Source: Escherichia phage vB_EcoS_ASO78B
Reading direction: 5' to 3' (one strand)
Sequence record: MZ726796.1
DNA: 46,233 bases
Below the pieces are notes generated by a model. The model worked only from the letters and a program-made list of their open reading frames with translations, did no database searches and was not told where the DNA came from. Made by a program: the position numbers and the translations under genes. Positions 1 to 40,254 of this stretch are shown piece by piece; position 1 is the first letter of the stretch; every line of letters starts with the position of its first letter.

Positions 1-444
1 ATGGCTAATCCAAACCCTGTAATGAAATTTTCCTCTGAGTACCAGCCTGCTGGCAGAGGATTGAGCTACAGAAACAGGCTTATTGAGGCATTAAAGCGTT
101 GCGGGCTTGGGGAGGAGGAATTCCTTGACGCATTCATCAGGACGTCAATCAAGATGACTGAGGAAAACCCGACTCAGGGTGTGCAAATGCTGAAGGAAAT
201 ATTCCTGCGCATCAGTCCTGTGCAGAAAAGTATGGCGCCTCCGGTTAATTTTAAATACCGCAAAGATGCCACGCCAGTTGAGCAGATAGAGGACGTTATT
301 CAATCTGTCTCCAGTGGCGAGCTTCCAATCGATGTGGCGTCTCAGGTTGTATCTATGATTAAGGTTGGCCTTGACGTGAAAGAGTTAACCGAACTCGCCG
401 CGCGCCTTGAGCGACTGGAGAAGTTACTGGAGCAACAACAGTAA
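1..444 (+). CDS. terminase small subunit (putative)
   Basis: 147-aa ORF starting at base 1; N-terminal NPNP..QPAGRG motif of the kind seen in small terminases; sits upstream of HNH and TerL. Confidence 0.55.
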   Translation: MANPNPVMKFSSEYQPAGRGLSYRNRLIEALKRCGLGEEEFLDAFIRTSIKMTEENPTQGVQMLKEIFLRISPVQKSMAPPVNFKYRKDATPVEQIEDVIQSVSSGELPIDVASQVVSMIKVGLDVKELTELAARLERLEKLLEQQQ

Positions 445-547
445 CTGATTTATAATAATTAATGCGGCAAAGGGTAGCTCCCTGCCCGGATTGGTCTCCG
501 GGCTGCCGCATCCAATCAATAGACCGCCTGTAACCGAGGATTCAAGA

Positions 548-1060
548 ATGCCATCATTAAAAGAGCTCGCTCTCACTCAGGAAAGACTTAAGCATCTACT
601 GCATTACAATCCAGATACTGGTGTTTTCACATGGGTTCAGCGCGCCTCAAAAAGCGTAAGAGTTGGTAATTCAGCTGGCAGTAAGAATAAGTCAGGCTAT
701 ATAGATATACGCATCGATAAGTCTTTACACAAAGCTCATCGGCTTGCGTGGCTTTACATTTATGGTGTGTGGCCCAATGGGAAAATAGATCACATCAATA
801 ACGTGAAGACAGATAACAGAATCTGCAACCTGAGAGAAGCAAGTAATAATGAAAACGGATGGAATGTTGGTAAACCATCGACAAATACGTCAGGAGTAAA
901 AGGTGTGAGTTGGGATGCAGAGAAAAATAAATGGAAGGCGCATTGCAGGGTTTTTGGGAAAAAATATACGGTAGGTAGGTTTTCATCACAAGAAGATGCT
1001 GAGAGAGCTGTGGCTGAGTTCAGAAATAAACATCACGGGGAGTTTTGTAATCATGGCTAG
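548..1060 (+). CDS. HNH-AP2 homing endonuclease
   Basis: HNH motif IDHINNVKTDNRICNLREA plus C-terminal AP2-like SGVKGVSW..GRF; GAGGA RBS before ATG 548; stop overlaps TerL start. Confidence 0.8.
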   Translation: MPSLKELALTQERLKHLLHYNPDTGVFTWVQRASKSVRVGNSAGSKNKSGYIDIRIDKSLHKAHRLAWLYIYGVWPNGKIDHINNVKTDNRICNLREASNNENGWNVGKPSTNTSGVKGVSWDAEKNKWKAHCRVFGKKYTVGRFSSQEDAERAVAEFRNKHHGEFCNHG

Positions 1061-2477
1061 AAAAAGACTCTCAAGTGTGGCAATAGAAAAACTCGAACAG
1101 GCAGTTGGAAACTCAACTGCAAAGCCTGAGTCTGCTGTGTTTGGCATTGTTGATCAGCTTCTTGCTGATGGCACGCCTAATGTTATAAAGCGCCTGAAAA
1201 TGACAGCAACAGGCGTCTCGGAAACAAACGAAGAGCCAACAATTCTTATACCAAAGCGAATGGAATTATTGCTTTATCCTCGTCGCTTCAAAGTGTTCTA
1301 TGGGGGCAGGGGGAGCGGAAAGACGGCTAACGTTGTGTCTTACCTGATAGAAAAAGCAAGATTCCGCAATAGTCGCGTTGGTTGTTTCCGGGAGATACAG
1401 AACTCAATCAAAGAATCAAGCTATGCCGAGTTGGTTGATGAGATAAACAGGAAAGGTCATGCTCATGAATATCGCTGCGTGGATGGAGAGATAACACACC
1501 ATACAACGAGATCAAAGTTTGTTTTTCGTGGCCTTTGGCGAAACATAACCGCCATCAAGGGCATGGCTGGCCTTACAGATGTTTTCTGTGAAGAATCCGA
1601 AAATATTAGTCAGGTTTCATGGGATACGCTAATCCCAACAGTCCGTGCCGCTGGCTCTGAAATTATTATTGTTTTTAACCCAAACAAAGAGACGGACCCG
1701 ACATGGACTAACTTTGTTGAGCCTTACATCGACAAGATGGTAGATGGCATATATCAGGATGATGACATTGTTGTTGTTAATGTTAACTACGTCCACAACC
1801 CGTGGTTCACTGAAGAACTTAAACAGCACATGAACCAGATGAAGGCAGTGGATTATGATCGCTATCTGTGGGTGTATGAAGGGTTATTCAACAAGCGTTC
1901 CGAAGAGGCCGTGCTTGGCGGGAAATGGCAAACGCTGGACTTCGAGCCATCTCCCGAATGGGGAGGGCCATATTATGGCATTGACTTTGGTTTTTCTCAG
2001 GATGCAACCGCAGCAACAGAATCATATGTAGAAGATTTGGGCGATGGACGCAGAAACCTGTATATCTATCGTGACTTTGCAAAGGTTGGCCTTGAGATAA
2101 CTGACACGCCGGAAGCGATGAGATCAGCATTCCCAAATTCAGAGAAGTACAGATGGTATGGGGATTGCGCAAGGCCTGAAACAATAAGCCATATACGCCG
2201 ATCTGGATTCGACATTCATCCGTGCGCAAAATGGCCGGGGAGCATTGAGGACGGTATTACGTGGCTGCGTGGGTGTGACAGGATTTACGTACACTCAAGA
2301 TGCAAGCACGTCATTGAAGAGATGACAATGTACAGCTACAAGGTTGATAAGTTAACGGGGAACATACTCCCTGACATAGTTGATAAATACAATCACGCGA
2401 TTGACAGTTTACGCTATGGCCTTGGTGATCACATCGTCCAGCGCGGTAGCGGGATGCTAATCCGGCGCAGGCGATAA
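1053..2477 (+). CDS. terminase large subunit
   Basis: Walker A FYGGRGSGKT near N-terminus, about 475 aa; start taken at MARKRL (ATG 1053), the track ORF begins upstream at 996. Confidence 0.9.
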   Translation: MARKRLSSVAIEKLEQAVGNSTAKPESAVFGIVDQLLADGTPNVIKRLKMTATGVSETNEEPTILIPKRMELLLYPRRFKVFYGGRGSGKTANVVSYLIEKARFRNSRVGCFREIQNSIKESSYAELVDEINRKGHAHEYRCVDGEITHHTTRSKFVFRGLWRNITAIKGMAGLTDVFCEESENISQVSWDTLIPTVRAAGSEIIIVFNPNKETDPTWTNFVEPYIDKMVDGIYQDDDIVVVNVNYVHNPWFTEELKQHMNQMKAVDYDRYLWVYEGLFNKRSEEAVLGGKWQTLDFEPSPEWGGPYYGIDFGFSQDATAATESYVEDLGDGRRNLYIYRDFAKVGLEITDTPEAMRSAFPNSEKYRWYGDCARPETISHIRRSGFDIHPCAKWPGSIEDGITWLRGCDRIYVHSRCKHVIEEMTMYSYKVDKLTGNILPDIVDKYNHAIDSLRYGLGDHIVQRGSGMLIRRRR

Positions 2478-36385: not shown

Positions 36386-36862
36386 TCAATCTACATCGGA
36401 AAGCAAGCCAAAATAGAAAAGCGTGGCTTTTTTTAGTTGCTCAAGACCATAAGCGATAGCGGCGTAGTGACCGAGTCTGCACATCTCAGTTAGCACGGCA
36501 TACTGGTCTTTGCTCACTCTGCTCTTACTTTTGTCACGGCGCTTTGCCTCAATCATTCCACAACTGTGCTTCACTCCAGGCGTCATTATCACGTTGTCGC
36601 CTATTCCAGTCTTAACCCCCATCTTCTGGCGTTTCAGTACGAACTGGATGCGGCTGGACGTGCCTGTTTCATTCGGGACGTGAAACCAGAGCACGTCAGG
36701 GAATTGGCTTTGCATCCATGTGCCGTAACCCATCTGTTCAGTCTCCTCTTTCGGGCATTCCCCACGATAACCGCTATCAAATACCCATATACCGCTATCA
36801 AGCTGCTTCACTTTGTTCTCCTGCAAAATCTTTTCTGTGGATGATGTCGCGACCTTTATCAT
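36386..36862 (-). CDS. VRR-NUC domain nuclease
   Basis: GDNVIMTPG...GMIEAKRRD...SKDQYAVL pattern; start uncertain because the 5' end overlaps the helicase. Confidence 0.6.
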   Translation of the reverse strand: MIKVATSSTEKILQENKVKQLDSGIWVFDSGYRGECPKEETEQMGYGTWMQSQFPDVLWFHVPNETGTSSRIQFVLKRQKMGVKTGIGDNVIMTPGVKHSCGMIEAKRRDKSKSRVSKDQYAVLTEMCRLGHYAAIAYGLEQLKKATLFYFGLLSDVD

Positions 36863-38720
36863 TAATGCGGTGCGTGATGCGTTTTGGCGCTTTAATCAAT
36901 GCCGCATACATCATGAATTGCTTGGCGTTTTGGCATTTCAGTATTTTCCCCGCCATTGACTTATCATCAAGGTGAGGAAAGACCGCCTTTGCCTTGAACA
37001 TGTTTTTCATGTGAGTTGCGCCACCATAAGGGTAGAAAACTTCGTTAGCCCAGCCTTCTTTGCCATCACAACGATTAATCCAGTAGCGATACAAAATACC
37101 TTCTCCATCCTTAGTTAACTGGACTTTGAAATCCATAACATCAGCCCACTCATTATCGGTATACGCACGCTCATTAAGTGCCGCATTCGGGTCGCGCAAA
37201 ACATGATCGCAATGTCGGCAATAACGCGCAGTGGGGTCGTTTTTAGTGCCGCAGCCATCATCAAAAATACGGATTCCGTGCTTATCGAAACCGCAACGGA
37301 TGTAACTGAAAAACTCCTCGCAACGACCGTCTGGCGATAATGCATCTTTGCCAATGCAGCGGCGCGCATATGGGCTGTTCATTGTCCCGCACTTCGGACA
37401 CGGAACCTGTTCACCACTGCGTTTTGAACGTTGCGCTTCAGCCTCTTCAAGGATTGGGTCTTCATACAGCTGACCAAGCTCAAACATCGTGCCTGAGAAA
37501 TCAAGAACCAGATGATCTTCTTTATGATACCCGGCATCAATTTGCTCTTTCTTCAGCAAGCGCATCCCGCGACCAAGCAACTGGACAAGGAGAGTTAGCG
37601 ACATTATTTTTCGTAATATGCAGCTCGTATCCCATAGCGGAATGTTGACACCAGTGGTAAGGGCTGCTATCTGGAATGTGAATTTTTTGCGCCCGGTGTA
37701 TGCATCTTTTAGAGCCTTCCTTCTGGCTTTTGGCCCCATATCTTCTGTAACTATTGAATAGCTTCCTTCAGGTAGGTATTTTGCCGCCTCCTGACAGTGC
37801 TTCTTGCCAGCACATGTAATCAATACTCCGTTTCTGTTTTTAGTCAGCTCCATAACCTTTAGCATTATTTTCTGCGTCAGCGTACCTTGTTCAAGGATTT
37901 CTTTCTGCATCTGCTTGAGCTGCTCGGTGGTAAAGTCCTGTGTGCCATCAACATCTGAACCATGAAACTCGGAAAGGTCATAATGCAGACTATCAACATC
38001 ATGAAGACCAAAAATTGTTGGCACAAGAAAGCCGTTTTCAACCATGTACTTGGTGTCTATATTGATAATCTCTTTCTTCCAGAAAGCGCCTTTTATTGAT
38101 GTAGTTCCGCGAAACGGTGAGCCTGTATAACCTATTATTCTCAACTCATGGCCGTGCTTATCTTTGCACCTTTTCATTAGCTCATTAATTATCACTGCAT
38201 ACTGCGTATCACCATCATTAACAACATCAATGTCATTAACCATATGATTTTCATCGATAAGCAGGAATCTTGGGCAAAAGTCAGAAAGCGCACCTTTTGC
38301 AATAACATTCCCTGATTCATCATTTTTATCAAACAAAGCATTTACAACAGTACCCTCAGAACCACAAATTATTGGATACGTAGAACTTTTCCTCCCCAAC
38401 GAAGCGCTGAATAGCGAGTTTCTTACACCAAGCGACCATAGCTCTTCCGCATCTTGCTCCACTATTTCGCCCTGTCTTGATAAAATCATCCCTGAATAGC
38501 CCATTTCCTGAAAACGCTTTGCTATCATGGCAATCATCAGTGACTTTCCGCTACCGACGCTTGCTGTTACATAGCTTGGACCAACATAATGGCGGATCAC
38601 ATCACCAGTTAACTTATATATCAACCACTGATATGGTCTTGGCTCGATATCACCAGTATCCAGATAAGATTTCAGTAGATTAATATCAATCTCTGAAATC
38701 ATCTTGTCTATTTTATGCAT
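36798..38720 (-). CDS. SF2 DNA helicase (DExH box) with C-terminal zinc ribbons
   Basis: Walker A SVGSGKS, LLIDENH DExH box, C-terminal CPKCG...C and CRHC pairs. Confidence 0.8.
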   Translation of the reverse strand: MHKIDKMISEIDINLLKSYLDTGDIEPRPYQWLIYKLTGDVIRHYVGPSYVTASVGSGKSLMIAMIAKRFQEMGYSGMILSRQGEIVEQDAEELWSLGVRNSLFSASLGRKSSTYPIICGSEGTVVNALFDKNDESGNVIAKGALSDFCPRFLLIDENHMVNDIDVVNDGDTQYAVIINELMKRCKDKHGHELRIIGYTGSPFRGTTSIKGAFWKKEIINIDTKYMVENGFLVPTIFGLHDVDSLHYDLSEFHGSDVDGTQDFTTEQLKQMQKEILEQGTLTQKIMLKVMELTKNRNGVLITCAGKKHCQEAAKYLPEGSYSIVTEDMGPKARRKALKDAYTGRKKFTFQIAALTTGVNIPLWDTSCILRKIMSLTLLVQLLGRGMRLLKKEQIDAGYHKEDHLVLDFSGTMFELGQLYEDPILEEAEAQRSKRSGEQVPCPKCGTMNSPYARRCIGKDALSPDGRCEEFFSYIRCGFDKHGIRIFDDGCGTKNDPTARYCRHCDHVLRDPNAALNERAYTDNEWADVMDFKVQLTKDGEGILYRYWINRCDGKEGWANEVFYPYGGATHMKNMFKAKAVFPHLDDKSMAGKILKCQNAKQFMMYAALIKAPKRITHRINDKGRDIIHRKDFAGEQSEAA

Positions 38721-39241
38721 TATTTTACCCTACCAAATTCACCATGATACTTTTTTGATGCTTCCGCATAAACTTTTGCTGCTTCTTCTTTTGTATCATA
38801 TCTGCCGAGCCATATTTTTTTATTATTTACATGTATAGAGCAAGTCCATTTTTTTGTTTGCTTACAAAAACCAACCCCTTTTACACCGGATGTGTTATGG
38901 CTTGGAATCCTCATGTTTCTTAAATTTCCATTAAAGTTTGTTTCTCTTAGGTTTTCTATCCTGTTATTCAATCTATTACCATCTTTATGGTCTATTATTA
39001 ACTCAGGCCAATAACCATGCACTAAAGCCCAAATTATTCTATGAACCTTTATATCAACCCCTAAAAATCCAACCTGAAGATATCCACTTACAGTCTTCGA
39101 ACCTGCAATAGCGCCACGTTTAACCCTGTTTGTTGTTGTTCTTTTCCATATGAGATTTATTCCGTCATATGAAAAATACTCCCGCAGCGTGGATACTGGT
39201 ATTGACTTCTCTTTTAACTTCATCAATTCGAAATCATTCAC
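38720..39241 (-). CDS. HNH-AP2 homing endonuclease (paralog of 548-1060)
   Basis: IDHKDGNRLNNRIENLRE HNH motif and SGVKGVGF..GRY AP2-like region; 1-nt overlap with helicase start. Confidence 0.8.
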   Translation of the reverse strand: MNDFELMKLKEKSIPVSTLREYFSYDGINLIWKRTTTNRVKRGAIAGSKTVSGYLQVGFLGVDIKVHRIIWALVHGYWPELIIDHKDGNRLNNRIENLRETNFNGNLRNMRIPSHNTSGVKGVGFCKQTKKWTCSIHVNNKKIWLGRYDTKEEAAKVYAEASKKYHGEFGRVK

Positions 39242-39303
39242 TTTACGTTACCCTCACTCAGTGTTACGCTTAAAGCATACAAACAGTAACAGATGGAGTC
39301 AAC

Positions 39304-40254
39304 ATGTTTTATTGGGAAGAGATACAACAAAAGATGATTGGAAATTGGGAGGCGGCATTACTGTCAATAGTCAACATAGACAGGAAAATTTTTTCTGGGA
39401 AACATCAACCATGCCCTCATTGCATGGGGGTTGATCGGTTCCGCTGGGATAATCACTTCGAAATCAAAGGCGATGGCGGCGCAATATGCAATCAGTGCGG
39501 GTCAGGTAGCGGCATGAACTGGCTGATGAAACTTTCAGGCATGAACTTCCCTGAAGCACTAGAGGCGCTTGGTGGATTCCTGAATATGCACCCACGCGAA
39601 AAGCTGGAGGCAATCAGGAAGGAGTTGCCGAAGATAAATTACAACGATGACTTCATCACCGAGCAGGAAGTCGCCGCAATCATGTCTAAAACTACGCGTG
39701 TCTCGATGAATGAGTGGACTTTGACAAATGGTATTGGTTGTGACGTTAACGTCGTCAGAGGCAAATCTGGAGAGCTTATTGCGGTTGAGATGGTGCGTGC
39801 TGATACAATGAAGCCGTGCAACGTAGCATTCATTGGCATGGATGGTGATTCATTCAGAACGTTTTTCCGCGCAGGATACAACAAGGACTCAGCCATCAAC
39901 GGCAAACTCACACGCGGCGCGATAAGCACAATCGGAGAAGATAATGGAAAGTTCATTTATCTGGTATCTGATTATGCCGATGCGTGGAAGTGCCATTACT
40001 TCACTGGCGCGCATGTCTGGTGCTGCTGGTATCCTGAAAACATGTGGGAAGTGGTGCGTTCTGTTAGCGATGAGATGAAGGCACGGTTACGCTGCATAGT
40101 TAATTATAAATTTGACGAACTTTGTGCTGCGGAAAATGCAGGACTTCCGGTGATGTTGCCTGATGATGCTGACACTATCAGGATGGCGAAGCGAATCAGA
40201 AGAAAGATTTATGACGCTGGCGAGTTGATAGAAAAAATGTCAGTAAGCAGATAA
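39304..40254 (+). CDS. DNA primase (zinc-ribbon N-terminus)
   Basis: GKHQPCPHCMGVDRFRWDNH...CNQCGSGSGMNWLMK matches the primase zinc-binding ribbon pattern; only + strand gene inside the minus-strand module. Confidence 0.65.
   Translation: MFYWEEIQQKMIGNWEAALLSIVNIDRKIFSGKHQPCPHCMGVDRFRWDNHFEIKGDGGAICNQCGSGSGMNWLMKLSGMNFPEALEALGGFLNMHPREKLEAIRKELPKINYNDDFITEQEVAAIMSKTTRVSMNEWTLTNGIGCDVNVVRGKSGELIAVEMVRADTMKPCNVAFIGMDGDSFRTFFRAGYNKDSAINGKLTRGAISTIGEDNGKFIYLVSDYADAWKCHYFTGAHVWCCWYPENMWEVVRSVSDEMKARLRCIVNYKFDELCAAENAGLPVMLPDDADTIRMAKRIRRKIYDAGELIEKMSVSR

What the first reader, a model, noticed from the sequence alone, without database searches (positions are those of the whole stretch)
548..1060. 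Two paralogous HNH-AP2 homing endonucleases at terminase and replication loci
The ORFs at 548-1060 and 38720-39241 share the HNH core (IDH..N/D.NR..NLRE) and an AP2-like C-terminus (NTSGVKGV..GR[FY]...E.A...Y.....K.HGEF). One is wedged between TerS and TerL, the other between helicase and primase, both with overlapping stop/start codons. HNH genes beside the terminase are sometimes needed for packaging, so the first copy may be functional rather than purely selfish.
Basis: partly seen in the sequence, partly recalled or inferred. Interest (0 to 1): 0.4.

Follow-up and report, generated by a model that had tools for sequence, protein, structure and literature searches.

The report
Two mobile HNH-AP2 homing endonuclease genes
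The two genes are real but ordinary: they are selfish, mobile "homing endonuclease" genes of a well-known phage type, inserted beside the terminase and the replication genes of a Skate-like Salmonella phage, and nothing suggests the phage needs either one to package its DNA.

Summary
ORFs 548-1060 (+) and 38720-39241 (-) encode 170- and 173-aa proteins that are 37% identical (E 2e-33). Both have Pfam HNH_3 plus AP2. The HNH1 model matches I-HmuI and plant AP2 domains.

The window is a Skatevirus-like Salmonella siphophage genome. Close relatives already annotate these genes as HNH or homing endonucleases. The class (HNH-AP2 "IPA-HNH" HEGs near terminase and replisome genes) is published.

They are not in-genome duplicates. 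Each is closer to endonucleases of other phages (49% and 59%) than to its partner. They also differ in GC (41.5% and 34.7%; genome 46.6%).

Both sites are polymorphic hot spots among relatives: empty, or holding this or another HNH. Each cassette carries a recoded 5' end of the neighbouring essential gene (terL codons 1-9, primase codons 1-12).

The packaging idea is not supported. Relatives with about 87% identical terL lack any gene at that site. TerL is Terminase_3, not the Terminase_1 type linked to packaging HNHs, and the protein has no CxxC zinc site. "TerS" is assigned by position only.

One side finding may be new. A conserved, structured leader of about 80 nt (462-547) precedes five different endonuclease ORFs in relatives, including a T5orf172 enzyme.

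The parts
1..444 (+). The assignment is positional only.
445..547 (+). Non-coding leader of HNH1. It holds a -10-like TATAAT (451-456) and a three-way-junction hairpin: P1 464-469/504-509, P2 471-474/480-483, P3 484-490/497-503. A CCU(527-529)/AGG(537-539) mini-hairpin lies over the SD GAGG (536-539).
   Evidence: The ~80-nt core is 86-100% identical upstream of five different endonuclease ORFs at three kinds of site. RNAalifold and manual pair counts give the same fold, with two covarying P1 pairs (G-C/G-U/A-U and C-G/U-A). There is no Rfam match and no consensus sigma-70 promoter or terminator.
548..1060 (+). HNH1: free-standing HNH_3-AP2 homing endonuclease gene, 170 aa.
1053..2477 (+). Large terminase gene. 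Its ATG lies inside the last codons of HNH1. Codons 1-9 (1053-1079) travel with the endonuclease cassette.
   Evidence: Pfam Terminase_3 E 4e-36 plus Terminase_3C. All HEG+ alleles share GCT AGA AAA AGA CTC TCA AGT GTG, while empty-site alleles have RCT CGT AAR MRM CTM TCM GCN CTG. Nucleotides 90-300 are mosaic.
36798..38720 (-). DNA helicase gene. Its ATG overlaps the HNH2 stop by 1 nt.
   Evidence: Pfam Helicase_C, ResIII and zinc ribbons. The helicase sequence resumes the common allele immediately at the ATG.
38720..39241 (-). HNH2: second free-standing HNH_3-AP2 homing endonuclease gene, 173 aa, co-oriented with the helicase.
   Evidence: Pfam HNH_3 E 1.5e-15 and AP2 E 4e-9. It hits I-HmuI 1U3E at E 3e-5 and WRI1 AP2 at E 2e-6. 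Only three phage records are >=80% identical (Klebsiella phages ZX4 and F14), and ZX4, the one inspected, has it at the same site. GC is 34.7% and GC3 28%. dN/dS against ZX4 is 0.15.
39242..39303 (.). Divergent intergenic region that moves with HNH2. It contains a promoter-like site on the - strand (39302-39274, TTGACT-17-TATGCT).
   Evidence: Consensus scan only. The 62 nt are nearly identical in ZX4 and unrelated to the region in Akira, PJN025 or SB28.
39304..40254 (+). DNA primase gene. Its first ~12 codons (39304-39339) belong to the HNH2 cassette.
   Evidence: Pfam Zn_Ribbon_Prim. The window and ZX4 read MFYWEEIQQKMI, while Akira, PJN025 and SB28 read MRYDWKDIEPKML. The sequences converge from codon ~13.

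Best explanation
Both genes are free-standing homing endonuclease genes of the HNH_3-AP2 class (the "IPA-HNH" HEGs of Barth et al. 2023). They were acquired independently and sit at two recombination hot spots of a Skatevirus-like Salmonella siphophage.

Each protein has three parts: an I-HmuI-like N-terminal beta-sheet, an HNH catalytic module with an intact D-H...N...N motif, and a C-terminal AP2 DNA-binding domain.

Proposed mechanism. The steps below are inferred; none was observed.
1. A cell is co-infected with a relative that lacks the gene.
2. The enzyme recognises a site in the empty allele next to the insertion point. The likely position is the 5' end of terL for HNH1 and of the primase gene for HNH2, because the HEG-linked alleles are recoded there.
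3. It nicks or cuts that site.
4. Recombinational repair off the HEG+ genome copies the endonuclease gene, its leader or intergenic region, and the recoded 5' codons of the neighbouring essential gene into the recipient (intronless homing with co-conversion).

Placing the stop codon over the start codon of terL or of the helicase gene keeps the essential gene expressed and makes the insert hard to delete.

Shown here: domain architecture and fold, presence/absence and allelic replacement at both sites, cassette boundaries, foreign base composition, and purifying selection.
For: Architecture:
- Pfam HNH_3 plus AP2 in both proteins, and both fall in phrog_99.
- A family profile hits I-HmuI 1U3E at E 5e-7 and the WRI1 AP2 domain at E 2e-7.
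- The family-invariant HNH residues D81, H82, N90, N94, N103 and N106 are present in both.

Mobility at site 1:
- Empty, with a 45-52-aa ORF, in SB28, KE12/KE13 and BS5.
- HNH1 type in VSt472, KFS-SE2, ZX4 and others.
- Variants at 67% (INT55) and 45% (IME207, Bas81) identity sit at exactly the same junction.

Mobility at site 2:
- Empty in Akira, and in ST65 judged from the length of the matched span only.
- A different HNH in PJN025, VSt472, swi2 and SB28.
- The HNH2 type occurs only in Klebsiella phages ZX4 and F14.

Other evidence:
- Cassette-linked recoding of terL codons 1-9 and primase codons 1-12.
- GC 41.5% and 34.7% against 46.6% for the genome; dN/dS 0.15-0.27.
- Relatives carry HNH-AP2 genes at still other sites.
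- The family is very large: 3538 phage records and 965 metagenomic clusters.
- HNH-AP2 and T5orf172 HEGs are reported to cluster near terminase and replisome genes (PMC10448857).
- The T4 intronless-homing paradigm is reviewed in PMC2988022.
Against: - No cleavage activity or target site is known for either protein. The target positions are inferred only from recoded flanks, which could also be plain recombination junctions.
- No relative was found that has no HNH-AP2 gene anywhere, so a trans-acting role for such enzymes cannot be formally excluded.
- Purifying selection and three long-diverged variants fixed at the terL junction would also fit a domesticated function.
- The empty sites are not clean deletions. 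They hold a different short ORF, so the events are replacements, and their direction is not proven.
Confidence: 0.85

Rival explanations
1. HNH1 is a domesticated accessory nuclease of the packaging machine. It would work with the terminase, as HK97 gp74, the staphylococcal cos-phage HNH or Skunavirus HrdP do, rather than as a selfish element.
For: - It lies directly upstream of terL and is translationally coupled to it.
- Three diverged variants (45-67% aa) occupy the identical junction, so the arrangement is old.
- dN/dS of 0.16-0.27 shows the protein is kept functional.
- Barth et al. note that the homing and packaging readings are not mutually exclusive.
Against: - Relatives with ~87% identical terL (SB28, KE12/KE13, BS5) have no endonuclease at this site.
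- Packaging HNHs are universally conserved within their phage group and are essential (PMC12967558). HNH1 is patchy: 27 phage records hold HNH1 at >=60% identity (24 at >=90%), against 165 records that match the terminase region.
- Packaging HNHs are tied to Terminase_1 TerL (Kala 2014, as quoted in PMC8861465). This TerL is Terminase_3.
- Cos-adjacent HNHs carry a [CxxC]2 zinc site (PMC3592412). HNH1 has no CxxC.
- A phage of the wider family is permuted and headful by PhageTerm (PMC11769527).
- The same leader and related ORFs occur at non-packaging sites.
Confidence: 0.05
2. The two genes are true paralogues made by duplication within this phage lineage, followed by divergence.
For: They share the same domain architecture, the same PHROG and 37% identity (E 2e-33).
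Against: - Each has closer relatives outside the genome. HNH1: 49% to Felix-O1-like phages, 48% to the PJN025 site-2 HNH, 45% to IME207. HNH2: 59% to phage P818.
- No nucleotide similarity remains.
- GC3 is 37% in one and 28% in the other.
- HNH2 occurs in only three phage records, all Klebsiella phages, whereas HNH1 is spread through the Salmonella and E. coli clade.
Confidence: 0.05
3. One or both genes are inactive remnants, or serve as AP2-type DNA-binding regulators (for example of the divergent helicase/primase promoter region) rather than as active endonucleases.
For: - HEG life cycles include decay. The PJN025/VSt472 site-2 HNH has lost half its AP2 domain, and Akira has an AP2-only ORF.
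- HNH2 sits in a divergent promoter region.
- I-TevI is a precedent for autorepression by a homing endonuclease.
Against: - Both window proteins are full length with all family-invariant catalytic residues.
- Both are under purifying selection.
- The HNH1 model is confident throughout, with pLDDT 96.
Confidence: 0.05

Closest known systems
IPA-HNH homing endonuclease genes (N-terminal HNH plus C-terminal AP2) described across phages by Barth, Dunham and Seed 2023 (PMC10448857). Magnani et al. 2004, cited there, described the HNH-AP2 family.
   Same: Same domain order and size class. They are free-standing, there are several copies per genome at variable sites, and they are placed beside the terminase and replisome genes.
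   Different: Nothing essential differs. These are members in a Skatevirus-like Salmonella phage, a group that paper did not examine.
I-HmuI (PDB 1U3E), the intron-encoded HNH nicking homing endonuclease of Bacillus phage SPO1
   Different: I-HmuI is intron-encoded and ends in helices plus a helix-turn-helix. The window proteins are free-standing and end in an AP2 domain. Nicking versus double-strand cutting is untested here.
T4 free-standing HEGs (seg and mob genes) and intronless homing (PMC2988022)
   Same: Intergenic insertion next to essential genes, co-conversion of flanks, expression tied into host operons, and RNA hairpins near the ribosome-binding site.
   Different: The nuclease and DNA-binding modules differ (GIY-YIG, or HNH with other C-termini). 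The hairpin here lies upstream of the SD and does not enclose it, which is closer to seg43(25) of Aeromonas phage 25.
Packaging-associated HNH proteins (HK97 gp74; staphylococcal phage HNH; Skunavirus HrdP; cos-adjacent zinc-ribbon HNH nickases)
   Same: An HNH nuclease gene adjacent to terminase genes.
   Different: Those are small PF01844-type proteins with a [CxxC]2 zinc site. They are universally conserved in their phage group, are linked to cos sites and Terminase_1, and are essential. HNH1 is HNH_3-AP2, patchy in distribution, next to a Terminase_3 TerL, and absent from close relatives.

Membership tests
HNH-AP2 (IPA-HNH) free-standing homing endonuclease | N-terminal HNH (His-Me finger) nuclease domain with intact catalytic residues | tested here: met
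HNH-AP2 (IPA-HNH) free-standing homing endonuclease | C-terminal AP2 DNA-binding domain | tested here: met
HNH-AP2 (IPA-HNH) free-standing homing endonuclease | Presence/absence polymorphism at a fixed site among otherwise collinear relatives | tested here: met
   Site 1 is empty in SB28, KE12/13 and BS5. Site 2 is empty in Akira and, by span length, in ST65. Alternative endonucleases occupy both sites in other relatives.
HNH-AP2 (IPA-HNH) free-standing homing endonuclease | Site-specific cleavage of the endonuclease-less allele and super-Mendelian inheritance in mixed infection | not testable with these tools
   There is only indirect support: cassette-linked recoded 5' codons of terL and primase, and a mosaic tract in terL.
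Packaging-associated HNH (HK97 gp74 / HrdP type) | Conserved in all members of the phage group and essential | tested here: not met
   It is absent from the site in SB28, KE12/13 and BS5. 27 phage records hold HNH1 at >=60% identity (24 at >=90%), against 165 records that match the terminase region. Essentiality was not tested.
Packaging-associated HNH (HK97 gp74 / HrdP type) | Partnered with a Terminase_1 (HK97-like) large terminase and a cos site | tested here: not met
   TerL is Terminase_3 plus Terminase_3C. The requirement is as quoted from Kala 2014 in PMC8861465. The relative KlebP_265 is permuted and headful by PhageTerm. The termini of this phage itself are unknown.
Packaging-associated HNH (HK97 gp74 / HrdP type) | Small HNH domain with a [CxxC]2 zinc-binding site (PF01844 type) | tested here: not met
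   There is no CxxC pair in HNH1. The Pfam hit is HNH_3, not HNH. The feature is as described in PMC3592412.
Small terminase subunit (for ORF 1-444) | Match to a TerS family or fold | tested here: inconclusive

The most novel reading that the evidence does not exclude
The conserved ~80-nt leader at 462-547 may be a portable, structured RNA module that travels with homing endonuclease genes and is exchanged among them.

It is shared at 86-100% identity by five otherwise unrelated or distant endonuclease ORFs (HNH-AP2 variants, an HNH_3 protein and a T5orf172 enzyme). These sit at three different genomic sites in Skate/Rouf-like phages.

Its three-way-junction fold shows compensatory changes. 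It might set the timing, stability or translation level of the endonuclease. Alternatively it might serve as a homology "handle" that lets different endonuclease ORFs swap in behind it.
Probability: 0.3. Interest if true: 0.5.

Novelty: already known. Interest (0 to 1): 0.2.

Why it matters
The main result is housekeeping. It fixes the annotation: two selfish HNH-AP2 homing endonuclease genes, not a packaging factor and not a duplication. It also shows that the terminase and helicase/primase junctions of Skate-like phages are endonuclease hot spots, which helps when reading the mosaicism and taxonomy of this phage group, used in biocontrol.

The recoded 5' ends of terL and primase give concrete candidate target sites for anyone who wants to test homing in these phages.

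The shared structured leader in front of different endonuclease families is the only element that could add something new. It might show how such genes are expressed, or how they are exchanged.

Tried and rejected
- **Leader as genome terminus or cos site.** I suspected this because four GenBank records (Skate, CECAV_048, BUCT541, HC6) break inside or just after the hairpin. I rejected it as unsupported. The break points differ. The Skate paper reports no termini and closed the contig by PCR. A relative is permuted. The element also occurs at non-terminase sites.
- **Leader as a known RNA family.** Rfam at E<=1 found nothing.
- **Leader as promoter or terminator.** Consensus scans found neither in the window nor in VLCpiS13e. 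The TATAAT-like hexamer is missing in metagenome locus L026.
- **Finding a relative with no HNH-AP2 gene at all**, to exclude a trans role. SB28 and Akira both carry such genes elsewhere.
- **C-terminal ...HGEFCNHG as a result of the terL overlap.** It is a family-wide motif, so I dropped the idea.
- **Wider searches for the leader.** Scans of viral and metagenome contigs gave only 13 loci, mostly the same phage clade. Diversity is too low for a strong covariation test.

Full report
**Observation**

The window has an ORF at 548-1060 (+) and another at 38720-39241 (-). They encode 170- and 173-aa proteins that align over 166 residues at 37% identity, E 2e-33. Both pass Pfam HNH_3, and both hit AP2: HNH2 above the curated cut-off, HNH1 below it. 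tblastn finds only these two copies in the window, and no nucleotide similarity remains between them.

The HNH1 TAG (1058-1060) lies over the terL ATG (1053), and the HNH2 TAA shares one base with the helicase ATG. Upstream, HNH1 follows the preceding ORF after 103 nt. HNH2 faces the divergently transcribed primase gene across 62 nt.

**What the window is**

DNA searches place the window among Skatevirus, Macdonaldcampvirus and related Salmonella, Escherichia and Klebsiella siphophages, about 93% identical to VSt472, KFS-SE2 and LPST10. These records already annotate the same gene at 548-1060 as a "homing endonuclease" or "HNH endonuclease". The KFS-SE2 protein is 99.4% identical to HNH1. HNH2 has only three close matches (85-86% aa), in Klebsiella phages ZX4 and F14. 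In ZX4 it sits at the same helicase/primase position and is annotated as an HNH endonuclease.

**What the proteins are**

- Both fall in phrog_99, "HNH endonuclease".
- A profile of 53 family members hits the homing endonuclease I-HmuI (1U3E, E 5e-7) over the N-terminal 110 residues, and plant AP2 domains (WRI1, E 2e-7) over the C-terminus.
- The AlphaFold model of HNH1 is confident, with pLDDT 96.
- The family-invariant D-H...N...N residues are present in both proteins.

This is the HNH-AP2 architecture that Barth et al. 2023 call IPA-HNH HEGs. They report it in many phage lineages, preferentially next to terminase and replisome genes (PMC10448857).

**Mobility at site 1 (upstream of terL)**

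Relatives show at least four states:
- No endonuclease, with a 45-52-aa ORF bridging to terL: SB28, KE12/KE13, BS5.
- The HNH1 type.
- A 67%-identical variant: INT55.
- A 45%-identical variant: IME207, Bas81.

All endonuclease-bearing alleles share the same last codons and the same terL codons 1-9 (GCT AGA AAA AGA CTC TCA AGT GTG). Empty alleles encode nearly the same peptide with different codons (RCT CGT AAR ...). The sequences merge at codon 10. terL nucleotides 90-300 are mosaic between genomes.

**Mobility at site 2 (helicase/primase)**

- Akira is empty. ST65 appears empty too, judged from the length of the matched span.
- PJN025, VSt472, swi2 and SB28 carry a different HNH.
- HC6 and IME207 carry a small ORF.
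- Only ZX4 and F14 share HNH2.

The HNH2 cassette comprises the ORF, the 62-nt intergenic region and the first ~12 primase codons (MFYWEEIQQKMI against MRYDWKDIEPKML). On the other side it ends exactly at the helicase ATG. SB28 and Akira carry further HNH-AP2 genes at other places.

**Independent origin**

HNH1 is 45-49% identical to endonucleases of IME207, PJN025 and Felix-O1-like phages. HNH2 is 59% identical to that of E. coli phage P818. Both figures exceed the 37% between the two window proteins. GC is 41.5% (GC3 37%) for HNH1 and 34.7% (GC3 28%) for HNH2, against 46.6% for the genome and 42-52% GC3 in the flanking genes. dN/dS against close homologues is 0.15-0.27, so both proteins are maintained by selection.

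**The packaging hypothesis**

Packaging HNH proteins have four published traits:
- They are universally conserved and essential in their phage group (HrdP, PMC12967558).
- They lie next to cos sites.
- They carry a [CxxC]2 zinc site (PMC3592412).
- They are tied to Terminase_1 large terminases (Kala 2014, as quoted in PMC8861465).

Here the gene is patchy, TerL is Terminase_3, and HNH1 has no CxxC. A member of the wider family is permuted and headful by PhageTerm (PMC11769527). I therefore rate this reading at about 5%. It cannot be excluded completely, because every relative examined has some HNH-AP2 gene somewhere.

**"TerS"**

**Side finding: the leader**

The 103-nt spacer upstream of HNH1 contains an ~80-nt core (462-547). 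This core recurs at 86-100% identity in front of different ORFs:
- HNH1.
- INT55- and L016-type variants.
- An IME207-type HNH, in metagenome locus L026.
- A 183-aa HNH_3 protein after the head-morphogenesis gene of Segz_1, ST46 and ECO95.
- A 368-aa T5orf172 endonuclease in a divergent intergenic region of the tail module of Klebsiella phage VLCpiS13e (also L028).

In each case similarity stops at or just after the start codon.

RNAalifold and my own pair count give the same three-way junction. Two P1 pairs covary (G-C, G-U, A-U; and C-G to U-A), and a conserved CCU/AGG mini-hairpin lies over the Shine-Dalgarno sequence. P2 and P3 are almost invariant, so the support is modest. The G-U intermediate fits an RNA on the sense strand.

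Rfam has no match, and consensus scans find no sigma-70 promoter or terminator. The closest precedent is the set of RNA hairpins that control T4 and Aeh1 endonuclease genes, especially seg43(25), whose hairpin sits upstream of the ribosome-binding site (PMC2988022). Whether the leader is a functional regulatory RNA or simply a recombination junction shared by recent exchange is open.

**Verdict**

The finding is real and correctly identified as HNH-AP2 endonucleases, but it is ordinary and already annotated in relatives. The duplication and packaging interpretations are not supported.

Noticed in passing
window 462-547 (also L006 2501-2580, L007 2511-2590, L008 2001-2085, L026, L028): An ~80-nt conserved structured leader sits upstream of five different endonuclease ORFs (HNH-AP2 variants, an HNH_3 protein, a T5orf172 enzyme) at three kinds of genomic site. 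It folds as a three-way junction with two covarying P1 pairs. There is no Rfam match.
   Followed up: partly
window 494-525: Four independent GenBank records open or close inside or just after the leader hairpin: Skate at 494, CECAV_048 at 500, BUCT541 at 516/517, HC6 at 524/525. These are probably assembly or record-opening artefacts, but a physical end or a sequencing-coverage effect of the hairpin was not excluded.
   Followed up: partly
window 1140-1350 (terL nt ~90-300): This is a mosaic tract. The window is only 57-80% identical to VSt472 here but 90-100% identical to INT55 and IME207, whereas downstream all are 90-100%. That is consistent with gene-conversion tracts next to the endonuclease site.
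   Followed up: partly
window 1-444: The ORF assumed to be TerS has no family assignment (phrog_9747, unknown function). Its helical model gives no specific fold match. The KlebP_265 paper also notes that no TerS can be identified in that relative's genome.
   Followed up: yes
L004 2793-3299 (PJN025; same gene in VSt472, swi2): The alternative site-2 HNH (168 aa) has an N-terminal extension and ends in the middle of the AP2 domain (…LVCLTP). It looks like a decaying homing endonuclease gene.
   Followed up: no
L001 440-577; L022 1141-1278; L020 857-1015: The empty TerS/terL sites hold a small 45-52-aa ORF that overlaps both neighbours and has no family match. The endonuclease cassette therefore replaces this ORF rather than inserting cleanly.
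   Followed up: no
L029 7873-8373 and 37664-38239; L030 20409-20900 and 223-495: SB28 and Akira carry HNH-AP2 genes at other positions (after the lysis cassette, and in the head-tail module). Akira also has an AP2-only ORF. Many alternative endonuclease sites exist in this phage group.
   Followed up: partly
L024 (human gut metagenome contig, coverage ~2.5x): An HNH1 copy is truncated at 99 aa (…NRICKLREAI*) behind an intact leader. This is either a pseudogene or a low-coverage sequencing error.
   Followed up: no
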